A DNA stretch of 64,000 bases. Source: Acidimicrobiia bacterium (GTDB lineage: Bacteria > Actinomycetota > Acidimicrobiia > Spongiisociales > ZC4RG35). The first letter of the stretch is position 1. Every line of letters starts with the position of its first letter. The position numbers and the translations under genes are program-made. This document shows positions 11,109-53,332 of the stretch, in pieces. The notes under the pieces were generated by a model. That model was not told the DNA's origin. It saw nothing but the letters and a program-made list of their open reading frames with translations, and made no database searches. The DNA is taken from NCBI GenBank assembly GCA_036525795.1, contig DATCZS010000112.1, forward strand, positions 8,635 through 72,634. The letters are read 5' to 3'.

Positions 11109-13574
<2,466 letters not shown>

Positions 13575-13607
13575 ATCGCTGCTCGCATGCTCTCGACGAT
13601 GGCCCGC

Positions 13608-15542
<1,935 letters not shown>

Positions 15543-15635
15543 TCAGGGCTGGGTGAGGGGAATTCACGTGTTGTAATTCTAGTCCTCTCGGGTGGCTGTC
15601 CCAAGCTCGTCGAGGGACCGCTCGCCCCACCTCCA

Positions 15636-15947
15636 TCACGCTTCTCGCGGTCTCCGAGCCGGGGGTCTGACCCTGATCTCGGTGACGACTCCGGGGCCCA
15701 GTTCCGCCTCCAGTCGATGCAGCAGGCTGGTGATTCCATATCGCAGGATCGCCACCGCTTGAGGGGCCACCGCCTCCACCACCAGCACACCCCGGTTGAG
15801 CGACACGGGTGTCGACTGCCGATCCCACGGGGAGCCGGCGAAGCGTTCCCACCCTTGCTCGATTCGTTGCCACACCGCCGGATCCGCCACCCCGAGGTTC
15901 GACATCAGCCTCCGGAGCAGGTCTCCGAGCCGGGCCGGGTCGTTCAT
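15636..15947 (-). CDS. dciA: DUF721 protein (Rv0004/DciA-like, putative replicative helicase operator)
   Basis: conserved position between recF and gyrB; MNDPARLGDLLRRLMSNLGV...; start placed at the ATG right after the recF stop (ORF extends to 15980). Confidence 0.55.
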   Translation of the reverse strand: MNDPARLGDLLRRLMSNLGVADPAVWQRIEQGWERFAGSPWDRQSTPVSLNRGVLVVEAVAPQAVAILRYGITSLLHRLEAELGPGVVTEIRVRPPARRPREA

Positions 15948-17041: not shown

Positions 17042-17047
17042 CGGCGA

Positions 17048-18130
17048 TCAGACCCGGACCGGCATCAACAGGTAGATGAAACTCGAATCGTCGACGGCCG
17101 ACAGGACGCTCGGCTTCAACCCGTCGATGACCTGGATCTTGACCTCGTCGCCGCTCACGGCGTTGACCCCATCGGCCAGATAGCGGGGGTTGAAAGCGAT
17201 CTGCACCTCGGACTGCTCCCCCGCGTAGGCCCCGGAGAGGTGCTCCGCCTCGGCGCCCACGTCCTGGCGGTTGACCGCGATCTCCACGCCGCCATCGGAC
17301 AACCTCAGGCGCACCGGGATGTGGTCCTCCGCCACGAGCGACACTCTGCCCAGCGCCTCCAACAGTCCTTCTTTCGACACGACCACCTGGTTGGGATAGG
17401 CCTCGGGGAGCAAGGTCTGATACTTGGGGAAGGTGCCCTCGATCATCCTCAGCCGGAGCGTTCCCCTGTGCGATGCGAACACTCCCTCTCTCCCTTCGAG
17501 GTCGACTCGCACCTTGGTGGAACCGATGGTCCGGGGGAGCTCCTTCAACCCGCGGGCAGGGATCAGCCCGGATTCTTCGATACCGACTCCCGCCAGGTCG
17601 CGCACCGCCAGCCGGTACGAGTCGGTGGCGACCAACCTGACCCCGTCCTCGCGTGACTCGAAGAGCACCCCCGTGAGGATCGGCCTGGCGGCGTCGCCGG
17701 AGGCGGCCACCGCCACCTGGGACACCGCGGCCGCCAGCGCCTCACCGTCGACTTCGGTTCCGCCCACGGGACGCTCCTCGGACGCAGGGAAGTCGTCCAC
17801 CGCCAGCTGTCGCAACGTGAACCGAGGGCCCTTTCCGACGATCTCGACATCTCCGTCCTCGGTTCCGATCGTCACCTGCCCGGACGGCATCCTCCTGACC
17901 GCCTGCTCGAGCAACCGACCGGGGATGACGGCCCTGCCTTCCTCGAGGGTCTCGACCTCCGCCTGTGTACGCACCGTCATCTCGAGGTCGGTTCCCGTCA
18001 CCTTGAGGGTCGAGCCACTCACCTCGCACAACAGGCCTTGCAGAACGGGCAGGGCAGACCGGGCTCCGACAGCCCGATTGGCACGAGAGAACACATCTCC
18101 CAGATCGTCTCGCTCGGCTCTGATTCTCAC
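17048..18130 (-). CDS. dnaN: DNA polymerase III beta sliding clamp
   Basis: GTG start; MRIRAERDDLGDVFSRANRAVG...; 360 aa, three-domain clamp pattern. Confidence 0.95.
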   Translation of the reverse strand: MRIRAERDDLGDVFSRANRAVGARSALPVLQGLLCEVSGSTLKVTGTDLEMTVRTQAEVETLEEGRAVIPGRLLEQAVRRMPSGQVTIGTEDGDVEIVGKGPRFTLRQLAVDDFPASEERPVGGTEVDGEALAAAVSQVAVAASGDAARPILTGVLFESREDGVRLVATDSYRLAVRDLAGVGIEESGLIPARGLKELPRTIGSTKVRVDLEGREGVFASHRGTLRLRMIEGTFPKYQTLLPEAYPNQVVVSKEGLLEALGRVSLVAEDHIPVRLRLSDGGVEIAVNRQDVGAEAEHLSGAYAGEQSEVQIAFNPRYLADGVNAVSGDEVKIQVIDGLKPSVLSAVDDSSFIYLLMPVRV

Positions 18131-18315
18131 AAGGGGTTTCCCTTCTTCGTCTTCTGTCTTTTGATATTCAACTCAGTAGTCGTAGTAGGCGTTGTGGATT
18201 GTGGATGATTCTGCAGATCTCCAACCGTGACGGGCGATCCCGGGCTTTTCGCGATGTGGATCTCTCCGGGTGTATTCCACAGGCGTTCGCTCCGACGCCA
18301 CGGGGTGTGGATGAG
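18131..18315. promoter_or_regulatory. putative oriC: DnaA-box cluster plus AT-rich unwinding element in the dnaN-dnaA spacer
   Basis: five TGTGGAT/ATCCACA-type boxes (18193, 18200 in tandem, 18255, 18275 reversed, 18306) and a locally AT-rich stretch 18150-18190 (cttctgtcttttgatattcaactcagtagtcgtagtagg). Confidence 0.6.
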
Positions 18316-19713
18316 TCAGGACGTTCTCCTCAGGCTCTGGGACAAGTCGGAGACCCGATCGAAGACGTCGCGATCGCTCTGCATCAGCTGCTGGACCTTC
18401 TCGATGGCGTACATCACCGTGGTGTGATCGCGGCCCCCGAACATCGCTCCGATCTTGGGCAGCGAGAGATCGGTCAGGTCGCGGCAGAGATACATCGCCA
18501 CCTGCCGGCACTGAACGAGCGGTTGCCGGCGACTGGGTCCGGTGACCTCGTCCAGGCTGAACCCGTATGCCTCGGCGGAGGCCCGGATGATCTCCGGGGC
18601 TGCCACCGCCTTGGCTTCGTGACCGGGAAGCAGATCCTGGAGCACCCGTTCGGCGACGTGGACGTCGATGGGCTCTCCCGTGAGCGAGGCAAAGGCCGTC
18701 ACCCGGGTGAGGGCACCTTCGAGCTCACGGATGTTGTCAGAGACGAGCCCGGCGATGAAGGCGAGGACGTCTGGGGGAACCTCCAGCGGAGCGAAGTCGG
18801 CGTTTCTGTTGAGGATCGCCAAGCGGGTCTCGATGTCCGGAGGCTGGATGTCGGTCAGGAGACCCCACTCGAAGCGACTTCGCAGCCGGTCTTCGAGGGT
18901 CGAGAGGTTCCGCGGATGACGATCCGAGCTGATGACCATCTGCTTGCCCGATTCGTACAGCGTGTTGAAGGTGTGGAAGAACTCCTCGAGGATCTGTTCC
19001 TTGCTCTCGAAGAACTGAACGTCGTCGAGCAAGAGGATGTCCGTGGTCCGGTATCTCGTCTTGAACTCGTCCATGCGCTTGCGCCGGATGGAGTCGATGA
19101 AGTCGTTGAAGAACGCCTCGGATGAGATGTAGCGGACGGTGAGACCCGGATAGAGCTCGAGGGCGTGATGCCCGATCGCGTTCAGGAGGTGGGTCTTGCC
19201 GAGACCGGCCCCGCCGTAGATGAACAGAGGGTTGTAGTGGTTTCCCGGTTGCTCGGCCACCGCCATGGCCGCGGCCCAGGCGAAGCGATTCGACTGGCCG
19301 ACCACGAAGCTCTCGAACCGGTACTTGCGCACCAGCCGGGCGGCGGCCTCCGGGCTGGGGAGGGCATCGCCGGCGGCTGGCTCTGGCTCATCTGGCAGAG
19401 AAGGCTGCGGGCGGATCGGGCCGGGATGGAGTTCTTCCTGGAGCGGCTCGCCGCTCGTCAGTCTGAGCTCGAGATGGGTCCCGAACGCGGTGGAGAAGGC
19501 CTCTTCGACGGCATCTCCGTGTTTGGCCATCACCCAACGCAGGTGGAAGTCCGACGGCGCGACGAGCGTCAAGCCCTCGTCGTCCATGTGACCTTCCAGC
19601 CGCGCGAGCCAGGTCTGCCATGCTCCCGGGCTCACACGAGCCCGCAATACATCGCGAAAGCGCGACCACCGATCGTCGGTGGGGTGAGGGTGCGGCAACA
19701 GTCCTCCTCCCAT
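18316..19713 (-). CDS. dnaA: chromosomal replication initiator DnaA
   Basis: AAA+ GLGKTHLLNAIG, C-terminal DNA-binding domain; longest ORF reaches 19788, but an inverted DnaA-box pair lies inside codons 8-14, so the ATG at 19713 (MGGGLLPHPHPTDDRWSRF) is preferred. Confidence 0.9.
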   Translation of the reverse strand: MGGGLLPHPHPTDDRWSRFRDVLRARVSPGAWQTWLARLEGHMDDEGLTLVAPSDFHLRWVMAKHGDAVEEAFSTAFGTHLELRLTSGEPLQEELHPGPIRPQPSLPDEPEPAAGDALPSPEAAARLVRKYRFESFVVGQSNRFAWAAAMAVAEQPGNHYNPLFIYGGAGLGKTHLLNAIGHHALELYPGLTVRYISSEAFFNDFIDSIRRKRMDEFKTRYRTTDILLLDDVQFFESKEQILEEFFHTFNTLYESGKQMVISSDRHPRNLSTLEDRLRSRFEWGLLTDIQPPDIETRLAILNRNADFAPLEVPPDVLAFIAGLVSDNIRELEGALTRVTAFASLTGEPIDVHVAERVLQDLLPGHEAKAVAAPEIIRASAEAYGFSLDEVTGPSRRQPLVQCRQVAMYLCRDLTDLSLPKIGAMFGGRDHTTVMYAIEKVQQLMQSDRDVFDRVSDLSQSLRRTS

Positions 19714-19746
19714 TTCGCTGCCATGCGGACCCGATCTCCACAGGCT

Positions 19747-19765
19747 CCTCCACACTTGTGGATAA
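19747..19765. promoter_or_regulatory. inverted DnaA-box pair (TCCACA-CT-TGTGGATAA; perfect TTATCCACA on the minus strand) at the dnaA 5' end
   Basis: read directly; consistent with dnaA autoregulation. Confidence 0.5.
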
Positions 19766-20135
19766 GCCAGACCGGGTTCGCTCTGCACACTGTCGTTCAG
19801 TTGTCGGAGCGCGTCGAACGACGGGTCCCGAAGGGGGGAAGTGACCCGATCTACGGCGTCCGACCGGCAATATAGGGAGCTCGCTTGCCGGCGTTCAAGA
19901 ACGCGGAAACCGCGACTGGACGGCCGGTCGACGGCGTCGCGATCCCGGAAATACCCTGCTGATCATTGAGGATTTCCACGTCGGGCCCCCCGGCGGGATC
20001 GGTGGGTTTGGGCGGTGACTGGTTGTCGGGTTTTTTCGCGAGCTAGCTCGGGTGTTCGCGAGTCGGCCCCGGCTTTGACAGTACGCCCCGACGGTCCGTA
20101 GCCTATTGCGGTCAATCCCGAGCAGACAGCCAATC

Positions 20136-20270
20136 ATGAAACGTACGTATCAACCCAAAGTCCGTCGGCGCAAGCGGCGGCATGGATTCCGGCACCGAAT
20201 GCACACCAGGGCCGGGCGGGCCGTTCTCAAGGCCCGCCGGGACAAGGGTCGCAAGCGGTTGGCTGCCTGA
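20136..20270 (+). CDS. rpmH: 50S ribosomal protein L34
   Basis: [44 protein letters not shown]; 44 aa; absent from the ORF track because of its length. Confidence 0.92.
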
Positions 20271-20318
20271 CCCATCACCCGGATCCCCACCCTCCGTACC
20301 CCGCGACACTTCCGCCGG

Positions 20319-20594
20319 GTGTTCGACACGGGAACCAGACGCCGCAGGGGCGGCATCACCGTGGTCAGTGCCCCGCCGGTATCGTCCGGGGGGGCGGTAG
20401 GGTTTGTGATCAGCCGTTCTTCCGGGAAGGCGGTGGTCAGGAACCGGATCAAGCGTCGCCTGCGGGCGGCGGTCCGAGAGATACCGGAGTTCCTCGAGCA
20501 GGATCGCGTTGTGATCGCCACCGGAGCGATCGCCACGGTCCCGTTCGAAACGCTGGTGCAGTGGCTTTTGGCGGCGATATCCCATGACGAGTGA
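20319..20594 (+). CDS. rnpA: ribonuclease P protein component (N-terminus uncertain)
   Basis: GTG at 20319; conserved RnpA-like residues ([16 protein letters not shown]) continue in frame upstream to the rpmH stop with no canonical start codon. Confidence 0.75.
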
Positions 20595-20841
20595 AGAGAC
20601 ACAGACTGCGAGACCGAGTGCACGACCGTTCGTGTTCTTGATTCGCGCCTACCAGAAATTGGTAAGTCCTTCGCTTGGCAAGAACTGTCGATTCACCCCC
20701 ACCTGCTCGACGTACGCCGCCGAGGCGATGGGCCGCTTCGGCCCGGTGCGGGGTGGGTGGATGGCCGCCAAGCGGATCGGTCGTTGCCACCCTCTGGGCC
20801 CTTCCGGCTATGACCCCGTTCCGTCGACTCTGGAGCACTGA
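20584..20841 (+). CDS. yidD: membrane protein insertion efficiency factor YidD
   Basis: 85 aa; [35 protein letters not shown] signature. Confidence 0.85.
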
Positions 20842-20844
20842 CGT

Positions 20845-21744
20845 ATGGGTGCGTTGTTCAGCGGTATTCAAAATGTGTTGGCGTCGGTTCTGGCGTTCTG
20901 GTACGACCTGGTGCCGTCCTTTGGGCTTGCCATCATCTTCCTGGTCATCCTCGTCAACATCCTGCTCTTCCCTTTGACGCTGCGTCAGACCAGGGCCACC
21001 CGGGCGTTTCAGGAGATCCAGCCTGAGATCAAGCGGATCCAGAAAGAACTCAAGGAAGATCCCGAGGCGATGCAGAAGGAACTGGTGCGGGTTCAGCGGG
21101 AGTCGGGTGCCTCGGCCGGTGGGTGTCTCCTCCCCCTCGTCGTCCAGTTCCCGATCTGGCTGGCGTTGTTCCGGGTGCTCACCAACATCTCCAACGTGGC
21201 GCGCGACGTCCCCGACACGACCCCGGTACTCCCCGAAGGCTCGGCGCTGCTCGATGCGGTTCGCGACCACAACATCGGTTTTCTGGGAATGGACCTCAGC
21301 CTCAACATGAGCGACGGTATCCGGAGTGGACTGGTGGCGGCGATCCCCTTCGTGGCGATGCTGGCGCTGATGGTGGCAAGCCAGTATTTCCAGCAGTGGC
21401 ACGCCCAGCGCGGCAACCACCCGCGAACCGATCTCACCGCCCAGCAACGTCAGCAGCAGCAGACCCAGCAGGTGATCACCCGGGTGATGCCCCTCTTCAT
21501 CGGCTTCATCTCGTGGAACTTCCCTGCCGGCCTCGTCGTGTACTGGACCACGTCCAACCTGTTTCGACTGGGCCAGCAGTTCGTCATCTTCGCCATTGAT
21601 GGCCGCCCCACCCCGCCGCCTGCCGGCGGTGACGGGCCACCCCGCAAGGGCGGAGACGGATCGCCGGATGACGAGGATTCATCCACCAAGAGACCGAAGC
21701 CCCAACCGCGCTCGGTCAAGAAGACGCGTCGGAGGAGGAAGTAG
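20845..21744 (+). CDS. yidC: membrane protein insertase YidC
   Basis: 299 aa; YidC/Oxa1 TM core (LFPLTLRQTRATRAFQEIQPEIKRIQ...), basic C-terminal tail. Confidence 0.9.
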   Translation: MGALFSGIQNVLASVLAFWYDLVPSFGLAIIFLVILVNILLFPLTLRQTRATRAFQEIQPEIKRIQKELKEDPEAMQKELVRVQRESGASAGGCLLPLVVQFPIWLALFRVLTNISNVARDVPDTTPVLPEGSALLDAVRDHNIGFLGMDLSLNMSDGIRSGLVAAIPFVAMLALMVASQYFQQWHAQRGNHPRTDLTAQQRQQQQTQQVITRVMPLFIGFISWNFPAGLVVYWTTSNLFRLGQQFVIFAIDGRPTPPPAGGDGPPRKGGDGSPDDEDSSTKRPKPQPRSVKKTRRRRK

Positions 21745-21746
21745 CC

Positions 21747-22634
21747 GTGGAGTGGGTCGAAGTCCGGGGAAAGACGATCGAGGTAGCGGTCAGCGCCGCG
21801 CTCGGCGAACTGGGCTTGGAGAGCCCGGAGCAGGCCGACGTGGAGATTCTGCAGGAACCAGAACGGGGATTCCTGGGGATGGGCGGACGCGACGCCATCG
21901 TTCGGGTCAAGCCGCGCGGCCAGCGCAAGCGTCGTCGTCGGCGCAAGCGGGGTGGCGGCGACAATGGAGAACAGCGGAATCGCCCGGCGGAGGGCGGGTC
22001 CGACCAGGCCAAGACAGGAGAACGGGCCCGGAAGGGCTCTCGTCAGCCCGCCTCCGCCGACAAACGCCCCAGCCCGCCCGAACCGCGCGGCGGTGAGCGG
22101 TCGCGCCGGGGCGAGTCACGGAGTGATCGACCGAAGAAGGAGACACCCAAGATGGAGATCGAGGAGCAGGCCCCACTGGTTGAGTCCTTCCTTACCGGTT
22201 TGGTCGACGCCTTTGGGTTGGAGGGCGAGGTATCGGTCCGCGTGGACGACGAGGTCATCGTGGCCGACGTTCGCGGCGCCCAGACCGAAGCGATGGTCGG
22301 CCCGAGGGGCCGTACCATCGAGGCAATTCACGAGTTGACCAAGACGGTTCTGCAGCGCCAGACGCAGTCTTCTGCTCGGCTCCGGCTGGACATCGCCGGC
22401 TACGGTGAGCGCCGGCGGCAGGCCCTGTCGATCTATGCGGATCAGCTGATCAACCAGGTGGCGGGTGAAGGCGGGGAGGTGGTGCTCGAGCCCATGAGTG
22501 CCAGCGATCGCAAGGTGATTCACGACGCCGTGGCGGCGCGACAGGGAGTACGGTCGTACTCGGAGGGCGAAGCCCCCCGTCGCTACGTGGTGATTGCCGC
22601 CACCGAGCCCTCGGGGGTCAGCGAAGAGGAATGA
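21747..22634 (+). CDS. jag: Jag/KhpB-like RNA-binding protein (Jag_N, KH, R3H)
   Basis: GTG start; MEWVEVRGKTIEVAVSAALGELG...; basic low-complexity linker; C-terminal R3H (DRKVIHDAVAARQGVRSYSEGE). Confidence 0.85.
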   Translation: MEWVEVRGKTIEVAVSAALGELGLESPEQADVEILQEPERGFLGMGGRDAIVRVKPRGQRKRRRRRKRGGGDNGEQRNRPAEGGSDQAKTGERARKGSRQPASADKRPSPPEPRGGERSRRGESRSDRPKKETPKMEIEEQAPLVESFLTGLVDAFGLEGEVSVRVDDEVIVADVRGAQTEAMVGPRGRTIEAIHELTKTVLQRQTQSSARLRLDIAGYGERRRQALSIYADQLINQVAGEGGEVVLEPMSASDRKVIHDAVAARQGVRSYSEGEAPRRYVVIAATEPSGVSEEE

Positions 22635-22718
22635 CCCGTCCAGCGGTGACGGTGTGCCAGGAGCCGGGCCCGAGGGCCCGGCTCCTGGCGTTGGGGCAGG
22701 TCTCGGCCGGCGGGCACT

Positions 22719-22732
22719 GTTCCACGTGGAAC
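22719..22732. other. parS-like palindrome GTTCCACGTGGAAC (copy 1)
   Basis: 14-bp perfect palindrome; differs from consensus parS GTTTCACGTGAAAC by one symmetric substitution; ori-proximal, between jag and rsmG. Confidence 0.5.
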
Positions 22733-22755
22733 GTGGGGTCGGTTCGATCGGCGTG

Positions 22756-22769
22756 GTTCCACGTGGAAC
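22756..22769. other. parS-like palindrome GTTCCACGTGGAAC (copy 2)
   Basis: identical to copy 1, 37 bp downstream. Confidence 0.5.
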
Positions 22770-22787
22770 CAGTACTGTGGGGGAACG

Positions 22788-23381
22788 ATGGATGCGGTGC
22801 AACGGGCGGCCGAGTGGGCCGGACTCGCCCTCGATGACGACATGGTCCACCTCCTGGGCCGCTTCGAGGAGTGGTTGCGCGACGAGGCGGTTCCGGCCGG
22901 TGCCCTCGGGCCGGCGGAAGTCGACCGAATCGGCCGGCGTCACGTGGCGGACTCCTTGTGCTTCGCCTCTGCCTGGCGGGGCCTGCCCCCCGAACGGTTG
23001 GCAGACGTCGGTAGTGGCGCAGGGCTTCCCGGTCTCCCCCTCGCCATCACCCACCCCCGGGTCCCGGTCACGCTGATCGAACGCGCCGGACGGAGGGTGA
23101 CGCTGCTGCGCCGCGCCATCCGGGTGCTGGGGTTGGACAACGTCGACGTCGTCTCCGACGATCTCGATCGAGTCGAGTCCCGTTGGCCGGTGGTGGTCAG
23201 TCGGGCAACGATCCCCTGGTCCCAGGCAGACCGTCTCATCCGGTTGCTGGAGCGTCCAGGGACGTTGGTGCTCGGTGGCTCTCACCTGGCGCGTCCGCAG
23301 GTGACCGGGTTCCAGGTGATCGACATCCCACCGGAGATCCTTGCTTCCCCGGCGTGGCTCCTTACAATGGCCCGGCCGTGA
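22788..23381 (+). CDS. rsmG: 16S rRNA (guanine527-N7)-methyltransferase RsmG (GidB)
   Basis: 197 aa; SAM-binding DVGSGAGLPGLPLAI; conserved position before parA. Confidence 0.9.
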   Translation: MDAVQRAAEWAGLALDDDMVHLLGRFEEWLRDEAVPAGALGPAEVDRIGRRHVADSLCFASAWRGLPPERLADVGSGAGLPGLPLAITHPRVPVTLIERAGRRVTLLRRAIRVLGLDNVDVVSDDLDRVESRWPVVVSRATIPWSQADRLIRLLERPGTLVLGGSHLARPQVTGFQVIDIPPEILASPAWLLTMARP

Positions 23382-45514: not shown

Positions 45515-45551
45515 CACACAGTCCCGACGCAGCTGGGGGTGGGGGTGATGG

Positions 45552-45593
45552 TCCCCCACGTAGGTGGGGGAAGGTCCCTGCGAGCCCGCAGGG
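45552..45593 (+). terminator. two consecutive GC-rich hairpins after argH (TCCCCCAC-GTAG-GTGGGGGA; CCCTGCG-AGCC-CGCAGGG)
   Basis: read directly; 38-80 nt after the argH stop. Confidence 0.4.
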
Positions 45594-45769
45594 CTCGGTG
45601 GTAGGGGGATCGGTCCCACCCACCAGGCGGTACCGTGACCACATCCGTGTGGTGGCTTGGGGCGCGGGCGCGACATCCCGTGCAGCCGGCGTGTGAGCCA
45701 TGGACACACCAGCCATGACCACTGACCGGTTGGCCACGGCGCCGCAGGCGCCGGAGTACCATCGCCGCG

Positions 45770-46615
45770 GTGGACCGCGAAACCCTCATCAGGACCATCA
45801 CCTCCGAGGTGCTCGCCCAGCTCGCCCCGGGCGAATGCGAGAACTGCGGAGGTACCTGCGCCGCCCACAGCCCGGACAAGGTGCGGTCGATGGTGGCGAA
45901 CGGCGCCGGTCGGGTCTCCTATCGCGGCCATGGTCCTGCCGTCCCCTCCGACCTGGCCGGATTCATCGATCACACCCTGCTCAAGCCGGACGCGTCGTCT
46001 GCGGACATCGATCGGCTCTGCTCCGAAGCGGTCGAGCACGACTTCGCCGCCGTCTGTGTCAATCCCGCCTGGGTGAGGCGCGCCGCCGAGAAGGTGAAGG
46101 GATCGAGGGTTCGGGTGGCGTCGGTGGTGGGGTTTCCCTTCGGTGCGACCTACCCCGAGATCAAGGCGATGGAGGCCCGCCGGGTGCTGCGTGACGGCGC
46201 CCGCGAGGTGGACATGGTGATCAACATCGGGGCGCTCAGGTCCGGCGACCACGACCTGGTGCGGGATGACGTCGCCAGGGTGTCCGACGCCTGTCACGAG
46301 GTGGGGGCGCTCAACAAAGTGATCATCGAGACCGCCCTCCTCACCGACGAGGAGAAGGTGGTGGCCTGCCATCTGGCCAAGGAGGGGCGGGCCGACTTCG
46401 TCAAGACCTCTACCGGCTTCGGCGGCGGCGGCGCCACGGTTCGCGACGTGCTCCTGATGCGGGAGACGGTCGGCCCCAAGCTGGGAGTGAAGGCCTCGGG
46501 AGGCGTTCGAGACAAGAGCGCCGCAATGGAGATGATCGCCGCCGGGGCCACCAGAATCGGGGCGTCCGCCTCGGTGGCAATCGTGTCTGGAGGGACCTCG
46601 AATGAACGGTATTGA
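45770..46615 (+). CDS. deoC: deoxyribose-phosphate aldolase with ~60-aa N-terminal extension resembling a BMC encapsulation peptide
   Basis: GTG start; extension [16 protein letters not shown] (amphipathic, PduP/PduD EP-like) plus Cys-containing linker [13 protein letters not shown]; DeoC core IDHTLLKP...Schiff-base Lys in [10 protein letters not shown]. Confidence 0.85.
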
Positions 46616-47225
46616 CCTCAGGGCGTTCGCCTTTCTCGACAGCCTTCAGCCGCAGTACGCCGCGTTCATCGGCACCACCGCCCAGGGCTTCCTGCCACTG
46701 GCCTACGAGGCGTCCCTGTTCGTCGAGATCTCGCCCGGAATAGAGATCAATCGGCTCACGGACGTCGCGCTCAAGGCGACAACGGTCAAGCCGGGAATGC
46801 AGATCGTCGAGCGGGTCTTCGGCCTGCTCGAGATCCACTCGCCGGACCAGGCGGAGACCCGGGCAGCCGGGGCGGCCATCCTTGCCGAGATCGACCACGT
46901 CGAGAACGACCGGCGCAAGCCCAAGATCCTGTCGAGCCAGATCGTCCGCCGCGTCGACGACCACCAGGCCCAGCTCATCAACCGGATGCGCCACGGGCAG
47001 ATGCTGATTCCCGGTCAGACGCTGTACGTGCTCGAGTGCGAGCCGGCCGCATACGCCGCCCTCGCCGCCAATGAGGCGGAGAAGGCTGCCAACATCAACG
47101 TGCTCGAGGTACGGGCGTTCGGCGCGGTCGGCCGGGTGTACCTCGGTGGCGAAGAGCGCGACATCGACGTCGGCTGGCGAGCGGCGGTCGCGGCACTCGA
47201 AGGTCTGGAAGGACGAGAAGACTGA
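46602..47225 (+). CDS. BMC shell protein, permuted tandem-domain type (EutL/PduB-like BMC-T)
   Basis: 207 aa; two permuted BMC halves ([25 protein letters not shown] resembles EutL [23 protein letters not shown]); RBS GGAGGG; overlaps deoC by 14 nt. Confidence 0.7.
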
Positions 47226-47250
47226 GACAGGCGAAGGAGAGGAGGCCGTC

Positions 47251-47541
47251 ATGGCCGATGCACTTGGAATGATCGAAGCCAGGAGCTTCGCGGCGATGGT
47301 CGAGGCGGCCGACGCAATGGTCAAGGCGGCCAAGGTCGAGTTGGTGAGCTACGAGAAGACCGGCGGTGGGTACACGACCGCCATCGTGCGCGGCGACGTC
47401 GCCGCCGTGAAGGCGGCGGTCGAGGCCGGGATCCGCGGCGCCGAGCGGGTGGGCGAAGTCGTCGCCAGCCATGTCATCGCCCGTCCCCACGCCAACATCG
47501 ACGAGGTGCTTCCGCTGGGCCGGCAGGGCGAGGGCGAGTAG
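47251..47541 (+). CDS. BMC-H hexameric shell protein (PduA/EutM-like)
   Basis: MADALGMIEARSFAAMVEAADAMVKAAKVELVSYEKTGGGYTTAIVRGDVAAVKAAVEAG...HVIARPH; strong RBS GAAGGAGAGGAGG. Confidence 0.92.
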   Translation: MADALGMIEARSFAAMVEAADAMVKAAKVELVSYEKTGGGYTTAIVRGDVAAVKAAVEAGIRGAERVGEVVASHVIARPHANIDEVLPLGRQGEGE

Positions 47542-47547
47542 TCCGCC

Positions 47548-47835
47548 GTGCTGCTGGGACGGGTCGTCGGGACGGTGGTGGCGAGCCGCAAGGAGGCGCG
47601 GCTGGCTGGGCTCACGTTCCTGCTGCTCCGCCAGGTCGACGTCGAGGGAGCCGAGACGGGCGCATATGTCGTCGCCGCAGACGCCGTCGGGGCGGGGGTC
47701 GACGAGATCGTCATGTACGCCACCGGCAGTTCCGCACGTCAGACCACCCAGACGGACGCCCGTCCCTGCGACGCCGTCGTGATGGCCATCGTGGACACAT
47801 GGGAGGTCGGCGGTGACGTCAAGTACCAGAAGTAG
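47548..47835 (+). CDS. BMC-P pentameric vertex protein (EutN/CcmL family), copy 1
   Basis: GTG start; [27 protein letters not shown]...[24 protein letters not shown]. Confidence 0.85.
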
Positions 47836-47838
47836 CCC

Positions 47839-49296
47839 GTGACGACGATCTCCTCGGACCAGATAGCCCGGATCATCGAGACGGTCGATCGGCGGCTGGG
47901 AGAGGTGGCGTCGAGCCCGCGACCGGCCGAGGCGTCTCGAGTCCGGGGCGAGGAGGGGCTCGAGCCGCTCGGGGACGGGATCCATCGGACCATCTCCGAT
48001 GCGGTGGCCGCAGCCAGGCGCGCCCAGGGCGAGTACTCGAAGCTGGGGCTGGCAGCGCGGCACAGGGTGGTCGAGTCGATCCGGAGCTCGATGCTCTCCC
48101 ACGCCGAGGATCTCGCCCTCCGGGCCCACACCGAAACGGGCCTGGGGAGGTACGAGGACAAGGTCAAGAAGAACCGACTGGTCACGACCAAGGCGCCGGG
48201 ACCCGAAGACCTCGAGCCGCAGGCCCAGACCGGGGACGAGGGGATGGTGCTCATCGAGTGGGCCCCGGTGGGGCTGGTCGGCGCCATCACCCCCACCACC
48301 AACCCGACGTCGACGATCATCAACAACACGATCTCGGTGGTCTCGGCGGGGAACGCCGTCGTCTTCAACGTCCACCCGAACGCCAAGCGGGTCTCTGCCT
48401 ACAACATCAAGCTCTTGAACCAGGCGATCACCGCCGCAGGCGGGCCGGCGGATCTCGTCACCGGCATTCCGATGCCCACCATCGAGTCGGCCAAGGAGCT
48501 GATGCATCACCCGGACATACGGGTGCTGCTGGTGACCGGCGGCCCTGGCGTCGTCAGCGAGGCGTTGAAGACCGACAAGCGGGCGGTGGCGGCCGGTCCG
48601 GGCAACCCGCCGGTGGTCGTGGACGAGACCGCCGACCTGGAACGGGCGGCGGCCCACATCGTGGCGGGGGCCTCGTTCGACAACAACATCATCTGCACAG
48701 ACGAGAAGGAGGTGATCGTTGTCGCCTCGGCGGCCGAGCGCCTCGTCCGGTCGATGGAGCGGGCCGGTGCGTACGTGCTCAAAGAGCATGAGCTCCGCCG
48801 TCTTGAGCGGGTGATCTTCACCGAGCTGGGTCCGCCGGGAAAGCCCGGTCACATCAACCCGGCCTGGATCGGCCAGAACGCATCGAAGATCCTCGCGGAG
48901 ATCGGCGTCACCGTGGGAGATGAGCTGCGGTTGATCGTGGCGGAGGTCCCGATCGAACACAGTCTGGTGTGGACCGAGCAGATGATGCCGGTGCTGCCGG
49001 TCGCCCGGGTGCCGAACGTCGACGCCGCCATCGAGTTGGCGGTCAGAGCAGAGCACGGATTCCGCCACACGGCCGGCATCCACTCCACCAACGTCGACAC
49101 CATCACCCGGATGGCTCAGGCGATGAACTGCTCGATCTTCGTCTCGAACGGTTCGTTCTTCGCCGGTCTGGGTGAGGGCGGGGAGGGCTATTCCTCGTTC
49201 TCCATCGCCAGCCCCACCGGAGACGGCCTCACCCGTCCCCGGACCTTCAGCCGGCCCCGCCGGGTCACCATGGTCGGATCGCTGAGGGTGGTGTGA
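47839..49296 (+). CDS. CoA-acylating aldehyde dehydrogenase (PduP/EutE-like) with N-terminal encapsulation peptide
   Basis: GTG start; EP SDQIARIIETVDRRL; ALDH core incl. catalytic Cys in FDNNIICTDEKE; 485 aa. Confidence 0.9.
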   Translation: MTTISSDQIARIIETVDRRLGEVASSPRPAEASRVRGEEGLEPLGDGIHRTISDAVAAARRAQGEYSKLGLAARHRVVESIRSSMLSHAEDLALRAHTETGLGRYEDKVKKNRLVTTKAPGPEDLEPQAQTGDEGMVLIEWAPVGLVGAITPTTNPTSTIINNTISVVSAGNAVVFNVHPNAKRVSAYNIKLLNQAITAAGGPADLVTGIPMPTIESAKELMHHPDIRVLLVTGGPGVVSEALKTDKRAVAAGPGNPPVVVDETADLERAAAHIVAGASFDNNIICTDEKEVIVVASAAERLVRSMERAGAYVLKEHELRRLERVIFTELGPPGKPGHINPAWIGQNASKILAEIGVTVGDELRLIVAEVPIEHSLVWTEQMMPVLPVARVPNVDAAIELAVRAEHGFRHTAGIHSTNVDTITRMAQAMNCSIFVSNGSFFAGLGEGGEGYSSFSIASPTGDGLTRPRTFSRPRRVTMVGSLRVV

Positions 49297-49874
49297 TGCG
49301 CCCGGCGCTCGCCATCATCGAGTTCGACTCCATCGCGGTAGGGATCGAGGCCGGGGATGCCATGGCCAAGAGGGCGGTGGTCGACCACCTGCGGGCCGGA
49401 ACGGTTCATCCCGGGCGCTACCTGGTGCTGATCGCCGGGCCGGTGGGCGAGGTCGAGGAGGCGTTCGCCGCCGGGCGCATGGTCGGTCAGGGTTCGATCT
49501 CCGATTCGATGCTGCTGGCAGACATCGACCAGCGGGTGGTCGACGGACTGGTGGGGGTGCGGGCGGTCGGAGCCGGCGAGGCCATCGGCGTCGTCGAGAC
49601 CCGTTCCGTCCCGGCGATCATCGAGGCGGCAGACGCCGGCGTGAAGGGCGCAGAGGTGACCCTCAGAGAGGTGCATCTCGCCGACGGACTGGGGGGCAAG
49701 GGCTATCTGCTGTTCAGTGGCCCCGTCTCGGAGGTGGAGGTCGCCGTCGACCTGGCCGTGGAGCGCGCCGGGGAGCGGCTCGTGGCGTCGAGGGTCATCT
49801 CCCAGATCCACGACGAGATGGATGAGAATCTGATCGACGCCCGCCGTTTCGCCGACCGGACGAGACCGTCGTGA
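49293..49874 (+). CDS. BMC-T tandem-domain shell protein (PduT-like)
   Basis: 193 aa; two BMC domains (LAIIEFDSIAVGIEAGDAMAKRAVV... and IGVVETRSVPAIIEAADAGVKGAEVTL...); overlaps the AldDH stop. Confidence 0.75.
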   Translation: MMRPALAIIEFDSIAVGIEAGDAMAKRAVVDHLRAGTVHPGRYLVLIAGPVGEVEEAFAAGRMVGQGSISDSMLLADIDQRVVDGLVGVRAVGAGEAIGVVETRSVPAIIEAADAGVKGAEVTLREVHLADGLGGKGYLLFSGPVSEVEVAVDLAVERAGERLVASRVISQIHDEMDENLIDARRFADRTRPS

Positions 49875-50149
49875 AGCTGGCCCGGGTCATCGGGACGGTT
49901 GTTGCCACCGAGAAGACACCCCATCTGGAAGGCGTGAAGTTCCTCATCATCCAGCCCCTCACCAAGCGGCTCGAACCGTCCGGCGAGCCGGTGGTGGCCG
50001 CGGACGGAGTGGCGATGGCAGGGCCGGGGGACATGGTCTACTTCGTGGGCTCGCGCGAGGCCGCCCAGGCGATGCCCGAGCCCTTCGTTCCGGTGGATCA
50101 CGCGATCGTCGGCATCGTCGATCAGGTGGCGCACGGGGGCGCGACGTGA
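49871..50149 (+). CDS. BMC-P pentameric vertex protein, copy 2
   Basis: GTG start; MKLARVIGTVVATEKTPHLEGVKFLII...VVAADGVAMAGPGDMVYFVGSREA. Confidence 0.8.
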   Translation: MKLARVIGTVVATEKTPHLEGVKFLIIQPLTKRLEPSGEPVVAADGVAMAGPGDMVYFVGSREAAQAMPEPFVPVDHAIVGIVDQVAHGGAT

Positions 50150-50415
50150 AGCTCGCCAGGGTGTCGGGGACCGTCGTCTCCACCATCCACTCGCCGGTGT
50201 TCGCCGGGCGGCGCCTGCTGCTCTGCGACTATCTCGATGCGGGCGGCGAGGTCACAGACGACTACGTGATCGCCGTGGACGTCGTCGACGCAGGACCGGG
50301 CGAGATTGTGCTGATCATGGACGAGGGGAACGGCGCCCGCCAGATCCTGGAACAGGCGGTCGCCCCGGTGCGGGCCATGGTGGTGGGAATCGTCGACGAG
50401 GTCCAGGGCGGCTGA
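50146..50415 (+). CDS. BMC-P pentameric vertex protein, copy 3
   Basis: GTG start; MKLARVSGTVVSTIHSPVFAGRRLLLC...VIAVDVVDAGPGEIVLIMDEGNGAR. Confidence 0.8.
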   Translation: MKLARVSGTVVSTIHSPVFAGRRLLLCDYLDAGGEVTDDYVIAVDVVDAGPGEIVLIMDEGNGARQILEQAVAPVRAMVVGIVDEVQGG

Positions 50416-52408: not shown

Positions 52409-53332
52409 ATGATCCTCGTCGCGCTGCCCGCCCTCACATTCGCCGTTGTGACGGTGCTGGGGTTCTTCGGCGGCTGGTGGTGGCCCCTGGACCTCCTCGC
52501 CAGCTTCCGCGCGCAGTACGCGGTGACGTTGACGGTGCTGGGCCTGGTGCTCGTCCTGGCGCGATGGAGGCGAACCGGCGCTGTCGTGTTGGTGGCGGCG
52601 CTGGCCAACGCCGCAGTCGTGGTCCCCCTGTACTTCGCCCCGACCATCGACGGGGTGCGGAGCGGGGAACGGCTGCTGGTGATGTCGTTCAACGTGAAGG
52701 CGGATGTGTCACTGTTCGAGCCACTGGCCGCGCTGATCAGACGCACCGATCCGGATGTGGTGTTCCTTCACGAGGCGACCCCGGGATGGGAAGAGCGCAT
52801 GGCGGAGACCGATCTCGGATACCTGGTCGTTCCCACCCGCAACGCCGGAGTTCGCTTCGGGACACTGGTGCTCGCCCCGGCCGACGCCCGGGTGGAGGGA
52901 TTCGGCTTTGCCGAGGCGGAGCCGCGTGCGGTCGAGGTGTCGATCGAAACCGGCCTCGGCCCCCTGACCCTCCTCGGCATCCACCCGCTCTCGCCGACGG
53001 ACGAGCGGAGGGCCGACCTGCGCGATGCCCAACTCTCCTACGCCGCCGACTGGGCGAGGGCGACGCAGGGGCGGGTGGTGGTGGTCGGCGACTTCAATGT
53101 GACTCCCTGGTCGGCCGCCTTCGGGCGGCTGGTGCGCTCCTCCGGGCTCGCCAACTCCCAGCGCGGCTTCGGCGTGCAGTCGAGCTTTCCGGCCAATCTC
53201 AATCCGGTGTTGCGCGTCCCGATAGACCACCTGCTCTATTCGGACGGCCTCGCCGTGATCGACCGCCGGCTGGGACCGTCCCTGGGGTCGGATCACTACC
53301 CGCTGTTCGTCGAACTGGCGTTGGTCCGTTGA
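52409..53332 (+). CDS. endonuclease/exonuclease/phosphatase (EEP) family membrane protein
   Basis: N-terminal TM segments; EEP motifs VVVVGDFNVTPWS, GSDHYPLFVEL. Confidence 0.7.
   Translation: MILVALPALTFAVVTVLGFFGGWWWPLDLLASFRAQYAVTLTVLGLVLVLARWRRTGAVVLVAALANAAVVVPLYFAPTIDGVRSGERLLVMSFNVKADVSLFEPLAALIRRTDPDVVFLHEATPGWEERMAETDLGYLVVPTRNAGVRFGTLVLAPADARVEGFGFAEAEPRAVEVSIETGLGPLTLLGIHPLSPTDERRADLRDAQLSYAADWARATQGRVVVVGDFNVTPWSAAFGRLVRSSGLANSQRGFGVQSSFPANLNPVLRVPIDHLLYSDGLAVIDRRLGPSLGSDHYPLFVELALVR

What the first reader, a model, noticed from the sequence alone, without database searches (positions are those of the whole stretch)
45770..50415. Compact DeoC-signature bacterial microcompartment locus (SPU-like) directly downstream of argH
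Eight tightly coupled same-strand genes with 4-14 nt overlaps or short spacers, read directly from translations. (1) DeoC aldolase whose core (IDHTLLKP ... Schiff-base Lys FVKTSTGF) is preceded by a ~60-aa extension starting with an amphipathic helix [16 protein letters not shown], very like PduP/PduD encapsulation peptides. (2) A permuted tandem-BMC protein of EutL/PduB type. (3) A canonical PduA-like BMC-H. (4) BMC-P. (5) A CoA-acylating AldDH with its own EP (SDQIARIIETVDRRL). (6) A PduT-like tandem BMC-T. (7, 8) Two further BMC-P. No phosphotransacylase, alcohol dehydrogenase, signature permease or regulator is present. From established knowledge of metabolosomes, this enzyme set predicts cleavage of 2-deoxyribose-5-phosphate to glyceraldehyde-3-P plus acetaldehyde, with acetaldehyde oxidised to acetyl-CoA inside the shell. 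This sugar-phosphate class has only been predicted from genomes, never characterised, and cofactor recycling would be unresolved. Placement in the origin-proximal core next to the arg operon of a high-GC actinobacterium is unusual.
Basis: partly seen in the sequence, partly recalled or inferred. Interest (0 to 1): 0.85.

Follow-up and report, generated by a model that had tools for sequence, protein, structure and literature searches.

The report
Minimal sugar-phosphate microcompartment operon lacking RPI
This is a real eight-gene operon for a protein-shelled organelle that most likely breaks down the DNA sugar deoxyribose-5-phosphate; the organelle type (SPU) is already catalogued and partly characterised, and this copy is unusual mainly because it has lost the accessory isomerase-like protein found in all 56 related operons examined.

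Summary
Positions 45770-50415 (+) carry eight tightly packed genes: DERA/DeoC, BMC-Tdp, BMC-H, BMC-P, CoA-acylating AldDh, BMC-Ts, BMC-P, BMC-P. All are confirmed by Pfam, NCBIfam and PDB searches.

Three labels need correcting:
- Gene 2 is CcmP/CsoS1D-type, not EutL/PduB-type.
- Gene 6 has the PduT fold but no cysteine, so no Fe-S pore.
- The BMC-H is closest to the Haliangium HO shell hexamer.

The SPU reading is right, but "never characterised" is outdated. SPU was named in 2014 and expanded to more than 280 loci in seven subtypes in 2021. In 2024 its DERA was assayed and the N-terminal extension described.

At least 596 species genomes encode extended-DERA relatives. In all 56 shell-linked loci among the best 80, the order is RPI-DERA-Tdp-H-P-AldDh-Ts-P-P, matching the composition described for SPU3. 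The window's small Acidimicrobiia clade (DERA 83-100% identical) lacks RPI and sits directly after argH, about 26 kb from dnaA. All eight genes are under purifying selection (dN/dS 0-0.13).

Verdict: an RPI-less variant of a known BMC type. One unreported detail is a conserved Cys4/Cys3His motif between the DERA encapsulation helix and the barrel. Interest is moderate to low.

The parts
45515..45769 (+). argH-DERA intergenic leader. It holds one copy of a GC-rich ~53-55-bp hairpin repeat (about 45537-45595), then a ~170-nt stretch that is nearly identical in the sister strain, ending in GGAG(N13)GTG.
   Evidence: Sequence read. The window and L087 differ at only 4 of about 195 aligned positions here, while dS is about 0.1 in the flanking genes. 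The repeat has 1 copy in the window, 2 in L087 and 6 in L096. There was no Rfam hit and no sigma-70 or terminator consensus. No RpiB relic was found.
45770..46615 (+). DERA (deoxyribose-5-phosphate aldolase), 281 aa, GTG start. This is the SPU signature enzyme. The catalytic barrel spans residues 61-279 with D148, K183 and the Schiff-base K212.
   Evidence: TIGR00126 at 271 bits. PDB DERA 8QPS at 270 bits over residues 61-279. D148, K183 and K212 are invariant in 18 and in 75 homologues. The AF2 barrel is mostly above pLDDT 80. dN/dS is 0.127.
45776..45823 (+). Encapsulation-peptide helix of DERA, residues 3-18 ([16 protein letters not shown]).
   Evidence: AF2 predicts a helix at residues 3-18. 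It matches the PduP tag at 10 of 12 positions. L6, T11, E13, V14 and L18 are invariant in the 18-sequence alignment and invariant or at least 90% conserved in the 75-sequence alignment. Dwyer 2024 reports the same element on all SPU DERAs.
45836..45868 (+). Cys3His motif C23-x2-C26-x3-C30-x2-H33 in the linker between the EP helix and the barrel. It is a possible metal site.
   Evidence: In the 18-sequence alignment C26, C30 and H33 are invariant and C23 is at least 90% conserved. In the 75-sequence alignment C30 is invariant and C26 and H33 are at least 90% conserved. Relatives in other phyla carry C-x2-C-x3-C-x3-C(P), and 35 of 73 species loci have at least 4 Cys within 16 residues. It is not mentioned in the SPU literature searched. 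AF2 confidence is below 50 here.
46602..47225 (+). BMC-Tdp (CcmP-like permuted tandem-BMC, stacking trimer with a gated pore), 207 aa. The gating pair is E70-R71.
   Evidence: NCBIfam CcmP at 322.6 bits. PDB scores: CcmP 4HT5 279 bits, HO BMC-T3 5V76 245, HO BMC-T2 5V74 233, CsoS1D 173. The ER pair is conserved in all relatives. dN is 0 against L087. NCBI annotates it as a hypothetical protein.
47251..47541 (+). BMC-H hexamer, 96 aa. It is the only one in the locus and presumably the main facet protein.
   Evidence: PF00936 at 1e-29. The best PDB match is Haliangium ochraceum BMC-H 5DJB at 144 bits, against about 96-99 bits for PduA and 108 for EutM. dN is 0.
47548..47835 (+). BMC-P pentamer paralogue 1, 95 aa.
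   Evidence: PF03319 at 5.5e-27. It is 37-40% identical to the other two BMC-P.
47839..49296 (+). CoA-acylating aldehyde dehydrogenase, 485 aa. It has an N-terminal EP (residues about 6-20, nt 47854-47898), a low-complexity linker, and the catalytic Cys286 in FDNNIICTDEKE.
   Evidence: PRK15398 at 612 bits. The best PDB match is the BMC AldDh 5JFL at 425 bits, with the SFDNN..C..EKE motif aligned. EP hydrophobic moment is 0.81, rank 1 of 471. dN/dS is 0.023.
49293..49874 (+). BMC-Ts tandem-BMC trimer with the PduT fold, 193 aa (192 aa from the ATG at 49296). It has no cysteine; His39 sits where PduT and MNdh-partner Ts proteins carry the CPGK cysteine.
   Evidence: PF00936 with two domains at 4e-34. 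PduT 3N79 at 131 bits and HO BMC-T1 5DIH at 86 bits. Zero Cys and an HPGR motif. The CPGK Fe-S motif is described. This matches the SPU3 description of 'no cysteine in the pore, no PduS'.
49871..50149 (+). BMC-P pentamer paralogue 2, 92 aa.
   Evidence: PF03319 at 1.3e-25.
50146..50415 (+). BMC-P pentamer paralogue 3, 89 aa, the last gene of the operon. The next gene is a convergent Na/Ca exchanger.
   Evidence: PF03319 at 3.3e-23.

Best explanation
This is a functional, minimal sugar-phosphate-utilising (SPU) bacterial microcompartment operon in an uncultured Acidimicrobiia bacterium. Its composition matches the published description of subtype SPU3, and its gene order matches that of 56 related loci, except that the RPI-like gene has been lost.

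Shell (inferred from homology to solved shells). One BMC-H tiles the facets. A Cys-free BMC-Ts and a CcmP-like stacked BMC-Tdp with a gated E-R pore are inserted into the facets. Three BMC-P paralogues cap the vertices. Together they are predicted to form an HO-like icosahedral shell.

Cargo. DERA and the CoA-acylating AldDh are recruited through their own N-terminal amphipathic helices.

Chemistry (inferred). Deoxyribose-5-phosphate from DNA or deoxynucleoside breakdown enters the shell. DERA cleaves it to glyceraldehyde-3-P, which leaves for glycolysis, and acetaldehyde. The shell retains the acetaldehyde and AldDh oxidises it to acetyl-CoA plus NADH.

Cofactors (inferred). No PTAC, AlcDH or PduS/MNdh is encoded, and the Ts pore has no Fe-S ligand. 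CoA/acetyl-CoA and NAD+/NADH most likely exchange through the large gated Tdp pore, as Dwyer et al. proposed for PTAC-less SPU loci.

Shown here: gene identities, catalytic residues, EP helices, conserved synteny, loss of RPI, and purifying selection. Inferred: shell assembly, substrate, encapsulation and the cofactor route.
For: Identity of all eight genes.

Catalytic residues:
- DERA D148, K183 and K212 are invariant.
- DERA is equivalog-level to bona fide DERA (TIGR00126, 271 bits against a 117 cut-off).
- AldDh Cys286 aligns with the catalytic-Cys motif of the BMC AldDh 5JFL.

Encapsulation helices.

Same order with 48-87% identical proteins in 56 shell-linked loci from Acidimicrobiia, Chloroflexota, Thermoanaerobaculia, Planctomycetota, Myxococcota and others.

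The composition matches the published SPU3 description point by point except for pfam02502.

The SPU model and measured DERA activity on dR5P are in PMC11585597.

The RPI-less, argH-adjacent form recurs:
- on contigs from several other samples;
- in a 97% sister strain, L087;
- in NCBI MAG GCA_041563225.1 and a JGI metagenome;
- in an 83% relative, L091.

dN/dS between the window and L087 is 0.00-0.13 for all eight genes, against 0.087 for argH.

GC content matches the flanks, with no sign of recent import.

One relative (L093) has a SorC-family regulator (PF04198) directly upstream of RPI. This is the family of the dR5P-responsive B. subtilis DeoR (established knowledge).

Tdp E70-R71 is conserved in all loci.
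Against: - There is no experimental evidence for this locus or for any SPU3 shell.
- The native substrate of SPU BMCs has never been shown in vivo.
- The RPI partner has been proposed to be a packaging factor. Without it, encapsulation stoichiometry is untested.
- No dR5P-supplying genes (phosphopentomutase, nucleoside phosphorylase, deoxyribokinase), transporter or regulator lie within the 64-kb window.
- How two cofactors are recycled with only two enzymes remains unresolved.
- Subtype assignment rests on composition and on the synteny of relatives. It does not use the BMC Caller HMMs, which I could not run.
- The DERA helix has only a modest Eisenberg hydrophobic moment: 0.47 for residues 4-15 and 0.15 for 3-18.
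Confidence: 0.8

Rival explanations
1. It is an ordinary SPU3 system whose RPI-like packaging protein is encoded at a satellite position elsewhere in the genome. The organelle would then not be RPI-less; only the operon would be.
For: Split and satellite loci are documented for SPU types. One example is SPU7, where DERA is in a satellite. Only 64 kb of a multi-Mb genome was searched. Some relatives carry a second RpiB copy 5-10 kb away on the other strand, in L041, L043 and L050. That copy is probably the housekeeping one.
Against: In 56 of 56 shell-linked relatives RPI is immediately upstream of DERA, often with overlapping stop and start codons. Fused RPI-DERA proteins exist. Separation would therefore be unusual. 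No pfam02502 was found in the 64-kb window.
Confidence: 0.15
2. It is a decaying remnant: a rearrangement next to argH deleted RPI and the promoter, and the remaining genes are no longer used.
For: The breakpoint lies exactly at the 5' end of DERA. The leader is filled with a variable-copy GC-rich repeat. No promoter consensus was found.
Against: All eight ORFs are intact in every member of the clade. dN/dS is 0-0.13, and three shell genes show no amino-acid change across 6-12 synonymous changes. The architecture persists to 83% DERA identity. The last ~170 nt of the leader are more conserved than synonymous sites. A sigma-70 consensus scan is uninformative in a 68% GC actinobacterium.
Confidence: 0.03
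3. The compartment handles a different aldehyde-generating substrate, or works mainly as an acetaldehyde or aldehyde trap, rather than in dR5P catabolism from DNA.
For: The native SPU substrate is unproven. The universal RPI-like partner is inactive on R5P and its role is enigmatic. No deo-type supply genes are nearby. DERAs are promiscuous aldolases (established knowledge).
Against: The enzyme is equivalog-level DERA with all catalytic residues. An SPU6 orthologue cleaves dR5P with Km about 0.1 (units not given in the text read). A SorC/DeoR-type regulator is adjacent in one relative.
Confidence: 0.1
4. It is a fragment of a PDU or EUT operon.
For: The EP on DERA is almost identical to the PduP tag. 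The Ts protein's best PDB hit is PduT.
Against: No diol dehydratase, ethanolamine lyase, PduL, PduS or other pdu/eut genes occur in the window. The signature enzyme is DERA. The Tdp/H/P set is closest to CcmP and HO-shell proteins. Synteny with 56 RPI-DERA loci also argues against it.
Confidence: 0.01

Closest known systems
SPU3 subtype of sugar-phosphate-utilising BMC loci (Sutter et al. 2021, Supplementary Data 2; Dwyer et al. 2024)
   Same: - AldDh and pfam01791 DERA both carry N-terminal EPs.
- There is a single BMC-H and a BMC-P triplet.
- The BMC-Tdp is CcmP-like.
- The BMC-Ts has no PduS partner and no pore cysteine.
- There is no PTAC or AlcDH.
- The subtype is reported in Actinobacteria among many phyla.
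- Gene order and 48-87% protein identity match 56 loci of this composition.
   Different: - The pfam02502 RPI-like gene is absent, both as a separate gene and as an RPI-DERA fusion. It is a listed signature enzyme of SPU3 and is present in 56 of 56 relatives.
- The locus abuts argH near oriC.
- The DERA linker carries Cys3His where many relatives carry Cys4.
SPU5 subtype (the published RPI-less SPU type)
   Same: It has no pfam02502, an AldDh with an N-terminal EP, a BMC-P triplet and one BMC-H.
   Different: - SPU5 is found in Proteobacteria, with one Chloroflexi member.
- Its BMC-Ts is PduS-associated and has a pore cysteine.
- Its BMC-Tdp is CsoS1D-like.
- It often carries a class II aldolase, and only half the loci have DERA.
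- Here there is no PduS, the Ts has no Cys, and the Tdp is CcmP-like (279 against 173 bits).
SPU6 of Chloroflexi (the experimentally studied SPU system, PMC11585597)
   Same: The DERA carries a ~60-70-residue N-terminal extension and conserved D/K/K catalytic residues. The predicted dR5P to G3P plus acetaldehyde to acetyl-CoA chemistry is the same.
   Different: - SPU6 AldDh has a C-terminal EP and sits on another AldDh branch.
- SPU6 has RPI, which forms a 1:1 complex with DERA.
- Its Tdp belongs to a different clade.
- It has an extra EutQ-like protein.
Haliangium ochraceum (HO) BMC shell, the structurally solved model shell
   Same: The closest solved homologues of the window's BMC-H are HO proteins (5DJB, 144 bits). 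For the Tdp, HO proteins come second, after cyanobacterial CcmP (5V76 245 bits, 5V74 233 bits). HO BMC-T1 also matches the Ts at 86 bits. The H + Ts + Tdp + 3xP parts list is the same.
   Different: The HO main locus has a class II aldolase rather than DERA, and two Tdp paralogues. Its function is unknown.
PDU/EUT metabolosomes (PduP, PduT, PduA, EutN)
   Same: The aldehyde-trapping logic is shared. The acylating AldDh is of the PduP/EutE class. The EP helix is nearly identical to the PduP tag (10 of 12).
   Different: There is no B12-dependent signature enzyme, PTAC, AlcDH or PduS. The Ts lacks the Fe-S ligand. A Tdp is present, which PDU and EUT1/2 loci lack.

Membership tests
Bacterial microcompartment (metabolosome) | BMC-H/T (PF00936) and BMC-P (PF03319) shell genes are clustered with enzymes. 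| tested here: met
   There is one BMC-H, two tandem BMC-T and three BMC-P.
Bacterial microcompartment (metabolosome) | A CoA-acylating aldehyde dehydrogenase carries an encapsulation peptide. | tested here: met
   PRK15398 at 612 bits. 5JFL at 425 bits with the catalytic-Cys motif. The N-terminal helix has a hydrophobic moment of 0.81.
Bacterial microcompartment (metabolosome) | The proteins actually assemble into a closed shell that encloses the enzymes. | not testable with these tools
   This needs expression with TEM and purification. Only homology to the solved HO shell components is available.
SPU BMC (Dwyer 2024: DERA plus AldDh as the common denominators) | A pfam01791 DERA lies within the shell locus. 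| tested here: met
   It is the first gene of the operon. TIGR00126 scores 271 bits and D148, K183 and K212 are conserved.
SPU BMC (Dwyer 2024: DERA plus AldDh as the common denominators) | DERA carries a BMC-specific N-terminal extension of about 60-70 aa that starts with an amphipathic helix. | tested here: met
   The extension is 60 aa with a helix at residues 3-18. It is conserved at 97-100% query coverage in the best 120 homologues and is absent from PDB DERAs, whose alignments start at residues 51-65.
SPU BMC (Dwyer 2024: DERA plus AldDh as the common denominators) | There is a triplet of BMC-P paralogues and at least one BMC-Ts. | tested here: met
   Three BMC-P are 37-40% identical to each other and one BMC-Ts is present. 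Assignment to colour clades was not tested because no BMC Caller HMMs were available.
SPU BMC (Dwyer 2024: DERA plus AldDh as the common denominators) | The DERA cleaves deoxyribose-5-phosphate. | not testable with these tools
   This is inferred from equivalog-level similarity and from the SPU6 assay in PMC11585597.
SPU3 subtype (Sutter 2021) | A pfam02502 (RpiB-like) enzyme is present, either separate or fused N-terminally to DERA. | tested here: not met
   There is no gene between argH and DERA. tblastn with SPU RPIs and E. coli RpiB finds nothing in the 64-kb window (best E 0.18). No PF02502 appears in the gene calls. RPI is present in 56 of 56 related shell-linked loci.
SPU3 subtype (Sutter 2021) | The BMC-Tdp belongs to the CcmP-like clade. 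| tested here: met
   CcmP scores 279 bits and CsoS1D 173 bits. The NCBIfam CcmP model scores 322.6 bits.
SPU3 subtype (Sutter 2021) | The BMC-Ts has no PduS partner and no pore cysteine. | tested here: met
   The Ts has zero Cys and HPGR in place of CPGK. No PduS is present in the window.
SPU3 subtype (Sutter 2021) | HMM and locus-clustering assignment by BMC Caller or LoClass. | not tested
   The tool and its HMMs were not available. Assignment rests on composition and on synteny with relatives.
SPU5 subtype | The BMC-Ts is PduS-associated with a cysteine pore, and the Tdp is CsoS1D-like. | tested here: not met
   There is no PduS, the Ts is Cys-free, and the Tdp is CcmP-like.
PDU / EUT operon fragment | Diol dehydratase (PduCDE) or ethanolamine ammonia-lyase (EutBC) and associated genes are nearby. 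| tested here: not met
   None were found among the window genes scanned.

The most novel reading that the evidence does not exclude
The linker between the encapsulation helix and the aldolase barrel of SPU DERAs may be a small metal-binding module. It has four ligands: C-x2-C-x3-C-x3-C(P) in many phyla, and C-x2-C-x3-C-x2-H in this window.

If it holds an Fe-S cluster or a redox-active zinc/thiol site, it could give these minimal SPU compartments an electron outlet or a redox-gated packaging switch. These compartments have no PduS/MNdh, no Fe-S Ts pore, no PTAC and no AlcDH.

Together with the natural loss of RPI, this clade would then define the smallest self-sufficient metabolosome: two enzymes and six shell proteins in 4.6 kb.
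Probability: 0.2. Interest if true: 0.65.

Novelty: new variant of a known kind. Interest (0 to 1): 0.35.

Why it matters
SPU compartments are among the most widespread bacterial organelles and are thought to recycle DNA-derived sugar, yet their assembly rules are barely known. The RPI-like protein has been proposed to be a catalytically dead packaging scaffold. A clade that has lost it, while keeping all eight remaining genes under strong purifying selection, is a natural test of whether it is dispensable.

The operon is also a very compact parts list for engineering: 4.6 kb, two enzymes that each carry their own tag, and a shell homologous to the solved HO shell.

The conserved Cys/His cluster in the DERA extension is a cheap, testable lead on the unsolved cofactor-recycling problem. 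It is not a new kind of system.

Tried and rejected
- RpiB relic in the argH-DERA spacer or elsewhere in the window.
- Riboswitch or known RNA in the 255-nt leader. Rfam gave no hit at E up to 1. The fold z-score of -2.4 is unremarkable for this GC content.
- Sigma-70 promoters and intrinsic terminators across the operon. None were found, which is uninformative for a high-GC actinobacterium.
- Conserved accessory genes around 56 related loci. All-vs-all clustering of flanking ORFs found no family beyond lineage-level synteny. An EamA-type transporter appeared in 10 loci, and a SorC regulator was seen in one annotated relative.
- Coupling between the DERA Cys motif and the Ts pore residue (His or Gln). 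There is no correlation.
- Whether the 65-aa extension occurs on other protein types. The word-index search returned no candidates. An exhaustive phmmer search of 1.84 billion representatives gave only 21 hits, all at protein N-termini and all 280 aa or shorter. This is consistent with DERAs and DERA fragments, with no evidence for other hosts.
- AF2 geometry of the Cys cluster.
- HGT signal. GC and skew in the locus match the flanks.
- PDU/EUT fragment idea. Rejected on gene content.

Full report
**1. What is in the sequence**

Positions 45770-50415 on the + strand hold eight ORFs. The junctions are a 14-nt overlap, spacers of 25, 6 and 3 nt, and three 4-nt overlaps.

HMM searches identify them as follows:
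- DERA/DeoC: PF01791; TIGR00126 271 bits against a 117 cut-off.
- A CcmP-like tandem-BMC protein: NCBIfam CcmP 322.6 bits. It scores only 20.6 bits on PF00936, as expected for a permuted domain.
- A BMC-H.
- A BMC-P.
- A CoA-acylating aldehyde dehydrogenase: PRK15398 612 bits.
- A tandem-BMC BMC-Ts.
- Two more BMC-P.

Independent gene calls on identical metagenomic contigs reproduce all eight genes, including the long DERA start. The window comes from an uncultured Acidimicrobiia MAG. NCBI accessions run consecutively from argH (HEY5685507) to AldDh (HEY5685512), and the Tdp is annotated as a hypothetical protein.

The window also contains gyrA, gyrB, dnaN, dnaA, yidC and rsmG at 11-23 kb. The locus therefore lies about 26 kb from dnaA. 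argR, argG and argH lie immediately upstream, and a convergent Na/Ca exchanger lies downstream.

**2.

- *Gene 2.* The best solved homologues are CcmP (4HT5, 279 bits), HO BMC-T3 and T2 (245 and 233 bits), then CsoS1D (173 bits). It is a BMC-Tdp, a stacking gated trimer, and not EutL/PduB. The E70-R71 pair aligns with the CcmP gating pair and is conserved in every relative.
- *Gene 6.* It aligns end to end with PduT (131 bits) but contains no cysteine. His39 occupies the position of the CPGK cysteine that ligates the 4Fe-4S cluster in PduT-type proteins.
- *The BMC-H.* It is much closer to the Haliangium ochraceum hexamer (144 bits) than to PduA (about 96-99 bits).
- *The AldDh.* Its closest solved homologue is the BMC AldDh 5JFL (425 bits), with the catalytic Cys286 motif conserved.
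- *The DERA barrel.* Residues 61-279 score 270 bits against DERA 8QPS. D148, K183 and K212 are invariant in 75 homologues.

**3. Encapsulation peptides**

- AldDh residues 7-20 (DQIARIIETVDRRL) have the highest helical hydrophobic moment of any window in the protein (0.81, rank 1 of 471). A low-complexity linker follows.
- DERA residues 3-18 are predicted to be helical.
- DERA residues 4-15 share 10 of 12 positions with the experimentally used PduP tag MNTSELETLIRTILSEQL.
- The 60-residue DERA extension is coding and conserved. The best 120 database homologues are 265-293 aa and cover 93-100% of the query. PDB DERAs lack the extension.

This is the extension that Dwyer et al. 2024 describe on all SPU DERAs.

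**4. What it is**

The literature already defines this system.
- SPU loci were named in 2014.
- They were expanded to more than 280 loci in 26 phyla and seven subtypes in 2021.
- They were re-curated to 206 loci in 2024, when an SPU6 DERA was purified and shown to cleave dR5P, and an RPI-DERA complex was demonstrated.
- A 2025 preprint reconstituted an archaeal SPU-type shell.

The published SPU3 description fits the window except for one missing component, pfam02502. It lists AldDh, pfam01791 and pfam02502; N-terminal EPs on AldDh and DERA; one BMC-H; a BMC-P triplet; a CcmP-like Tdp; and a Ts without PduS or a pore cysteine. It reports the subtype in Actinobacteria among other phyla.

**5. 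Comparative genomics**

Among the best 80:
- 56 loci have shell genes next to DERA.
- All 56 have the order RPI-DERA-Tdp-H-P-AldDh-Ts-P-P.
- Protein identities to the window are 48-87%.

The upstream RPIs carry their own EP helix and the Cys-to-Asp active-site change reported for SPU RPIs.

The window has no RPI. argH is followed by 255 nt and then DERA. No RpiB-like sequence occurs anywhere in the 64 kb.

The same RPI-less, argH-adjacent arrangement is found elsewhere:
- in identical or near-identical contigs from several samples;
- in a sister strain with 97% DERA identity;
- in NCBI MAG GCA_041563225.1 and a JGI metagenome;
- in a contig with 83% DERA identity, where the argH C-terminus lies about 250 bp upstream of DERA.

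The nearest RPI-containing relatives are about 74% identical. The loss therefore defines a small clade.

Between the window and the sister strain, dN/dS is 0.00 (Tdp, H, P1), 0.023 (AldDh), 0.060 (Ts), 0.074-0.088 (P3, P2) and 0.127 (DERA). For argH it is 0.087. The RPI-less operon is being maintained by selection.

**6. How it most likely works**

From homology to the HO shell and the SPU model, the predicted scheme is this:
- BMC-H forms the facets, Ts and stacked Tdp trimers are inserted into them, and the BMC-P paralogues cap the vertices.
- DERA and AldDh are targeted by their own helices.
- dR5P enters the shell and DERA yields G3P, which exits, and acetaldehyde.
- AldDh converts the trapped acetaldehyde to acetyl-CoA and NADH.

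There is no PTAC, AlcDH or PduS/MNdh, and the Ts has no Fe-S ligand. Cofactors must therefore be exchanged rather than recycled internally. The gated ~14-Å Tdp pore is the obvious route, as Dwyer et al. argued from the co-occurrence of Tdp with PTAC-less SPU loci.

All of this is inference. Only the gene identities, catalytic residues, targeting helices, synteny and selection were shown here.

In one relative a SorC-family regulator sits directly upstream of RPI. That is the family of the dR5P-sensing B. subtilis DeoR (established knowledge), which is weak support for the substrate. No accessory gene is conserved across the related loci.

**7. An unreported detail**

Between the EP helix and the barrel, the window DERA has C23-x2-C26-x3-C30-x2-H33.
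- In the 18-sequence alignment C26, C30 and H33 are invariant and C23 is at least 90% conserved. In the 75-sequence alignment C30 is invariant and C26 and H33 are at least 90% conserved.
- Chloroflexota and Thermoanaerobaculia relatives have C-x2-C-x3-C-x3-C.
- Pyrinomonadaceae have C-x-C-x3-C-x3-C-P.
- One Chloroflexota relative (Candidatus Aquidulcis, L059) has the ferredoxin-like C-x2-C-x2-C-x3-C-P.

Of 73 classifiable species loci:
- 35 have at least 4 Cys within 16 residues;
- 12 have 3 Cys, of which 7 fit C-x2-C-x3-C-x2-H and three others have His residues between the first two Cys;
- 26 have two or fewer.

An Acidimicrobiia/Ilumatobacteraceae subclade has deleted the segment.

The main texts of the two SPU papers do not mention this motif, and neither does the 2021 supplement. 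The supplement does note Cys-rich mini-domains on other BMC cargo.

AF2 gives no confident geometry for this region. Whether it binds Zn or Fe-S, or forms disulfides, is open.

**8. Verdict**

The finding is real and correctly identified as an SPU-type microcompartment, but that type is well catalogued and no longer uncharacterised. What is new here is modest:
- a clade-specific RPI-less SPU3-like variant under purifying selection;
- its relocation next to argH near the origin;
- a variable-copy GC-rich repeat in its leader;
- a conserved Cys/His cluster in the DERA extension.

I rate it a new variant of a known kind, with interest 0.35.

Noticed in passing
window 45836-45868 (DERA residues 23-33); relatives L007-L086: A Cys3His/Cys4 cluster is conserved in the DERA N-terminal extension across at least six phyla. 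One relative has ferredoxin-like CxxCxxCxxxCP spacing, and an Acidimicrobiia subclade has lost the segment. The SPU literature I could search does not discuss it.
   Followed up: partly
window 45537-45595; L087 5690-6000; L096 2448-2772: A GC-rich ~53-55-bp hairpin-forming unit (…GATGGTCCCCCACGTAGGTGGGGGAAGGTCCCTGCG…) lies directly after the argH stop. It varies in copy number between close relatives: 1, 2 and 6.1 copies. It occurs only once in the 64-kb window.
   Followed up: partly
window 45596-45769: The last ~170 nt before the DERA start differ at only 4 positions from the sister strain, although dS is about 0.1 in the flanking genes. Short blocks (CCACTGACC repeats and GAGTACCATCGCCG before the GTG) persist in the 83% relative. 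This may be a promoter, operator or 5'UTR. There was no Rfam match.
   Followed up: partly
window 49407-49418 (Ts residues 39-42, HPGR): The BMC-Ts pore position that is Cys in PduT-type Fe-S shell proteins is His here. It is His or Gln in all relatives. Three His at a trimer pore could bind a metal or gate an anion.
   Followed up: no
L059, L063, L067, L070, L074, L076, L078-L081, L084, L086 (also L054, L065, L068, L069, L071, L072): Many Pyrinomonadaceae, Blastocatellia, Planctomycetota and Anaerolineae genomes encode an extended DERA, usually with RPI, but show no detectable homologue of the window's shell proteins or AldDh anywhere in the stored flanks (up to 10 kb each side). These may be satellite or fragmented (FRAG-type) loci.
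   Followed up: no
L093 8417-9391: A SorC-family regulator (Sigma70_r4 plus Sugar-bind, PF04198) lies directly upstream of RPI in one Acidimicrobiia-like relative. This is the family of the dR5P-responsive DeoR of Bacillus. A NUDIX hydrolase follows the last BMC-P in the same locus.
   Followed up: no
window 52409-53332; L092 4756-5418: An Exo_endo_phos (DNase I/AP-endonuclease superfamily) protein with a hydrophobic N-terminus lies 2 kb downstream of the operon. Another EEP gene lies 4.5 kb upstream of the locus in an unrelated genomic context. This could be a link to DNA scavenging or a coincidence. It did not emerge as a conserved neighbour in clustering.
   Followed up: partly
window 11109-23381: The replication-origin gene set is present: gyrA, gyrB, dnaN and dnaA on the - strand, and yidC and rsmG on the + strand. 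The window therefore spans oriC.
   Followed up: yes
window 46602-47225: The Tdp shell protein is annotated 'hypothetical protein' in the NCBI record and falls below the PF00936 gathering score. Shell-gene screens based on PF00936 alone would undercount this locus. The identical protein is seen on 74 contigs.
   Followed up: yes
window 47071-47541: The mechanical ORF list extends the BMC-H ORF 60 codons upstream, overlapping the Tdp. The conserved start is the ATG at 47251 (MADALGMIE...), as used by the independent gene calls.
   Followed up: yes
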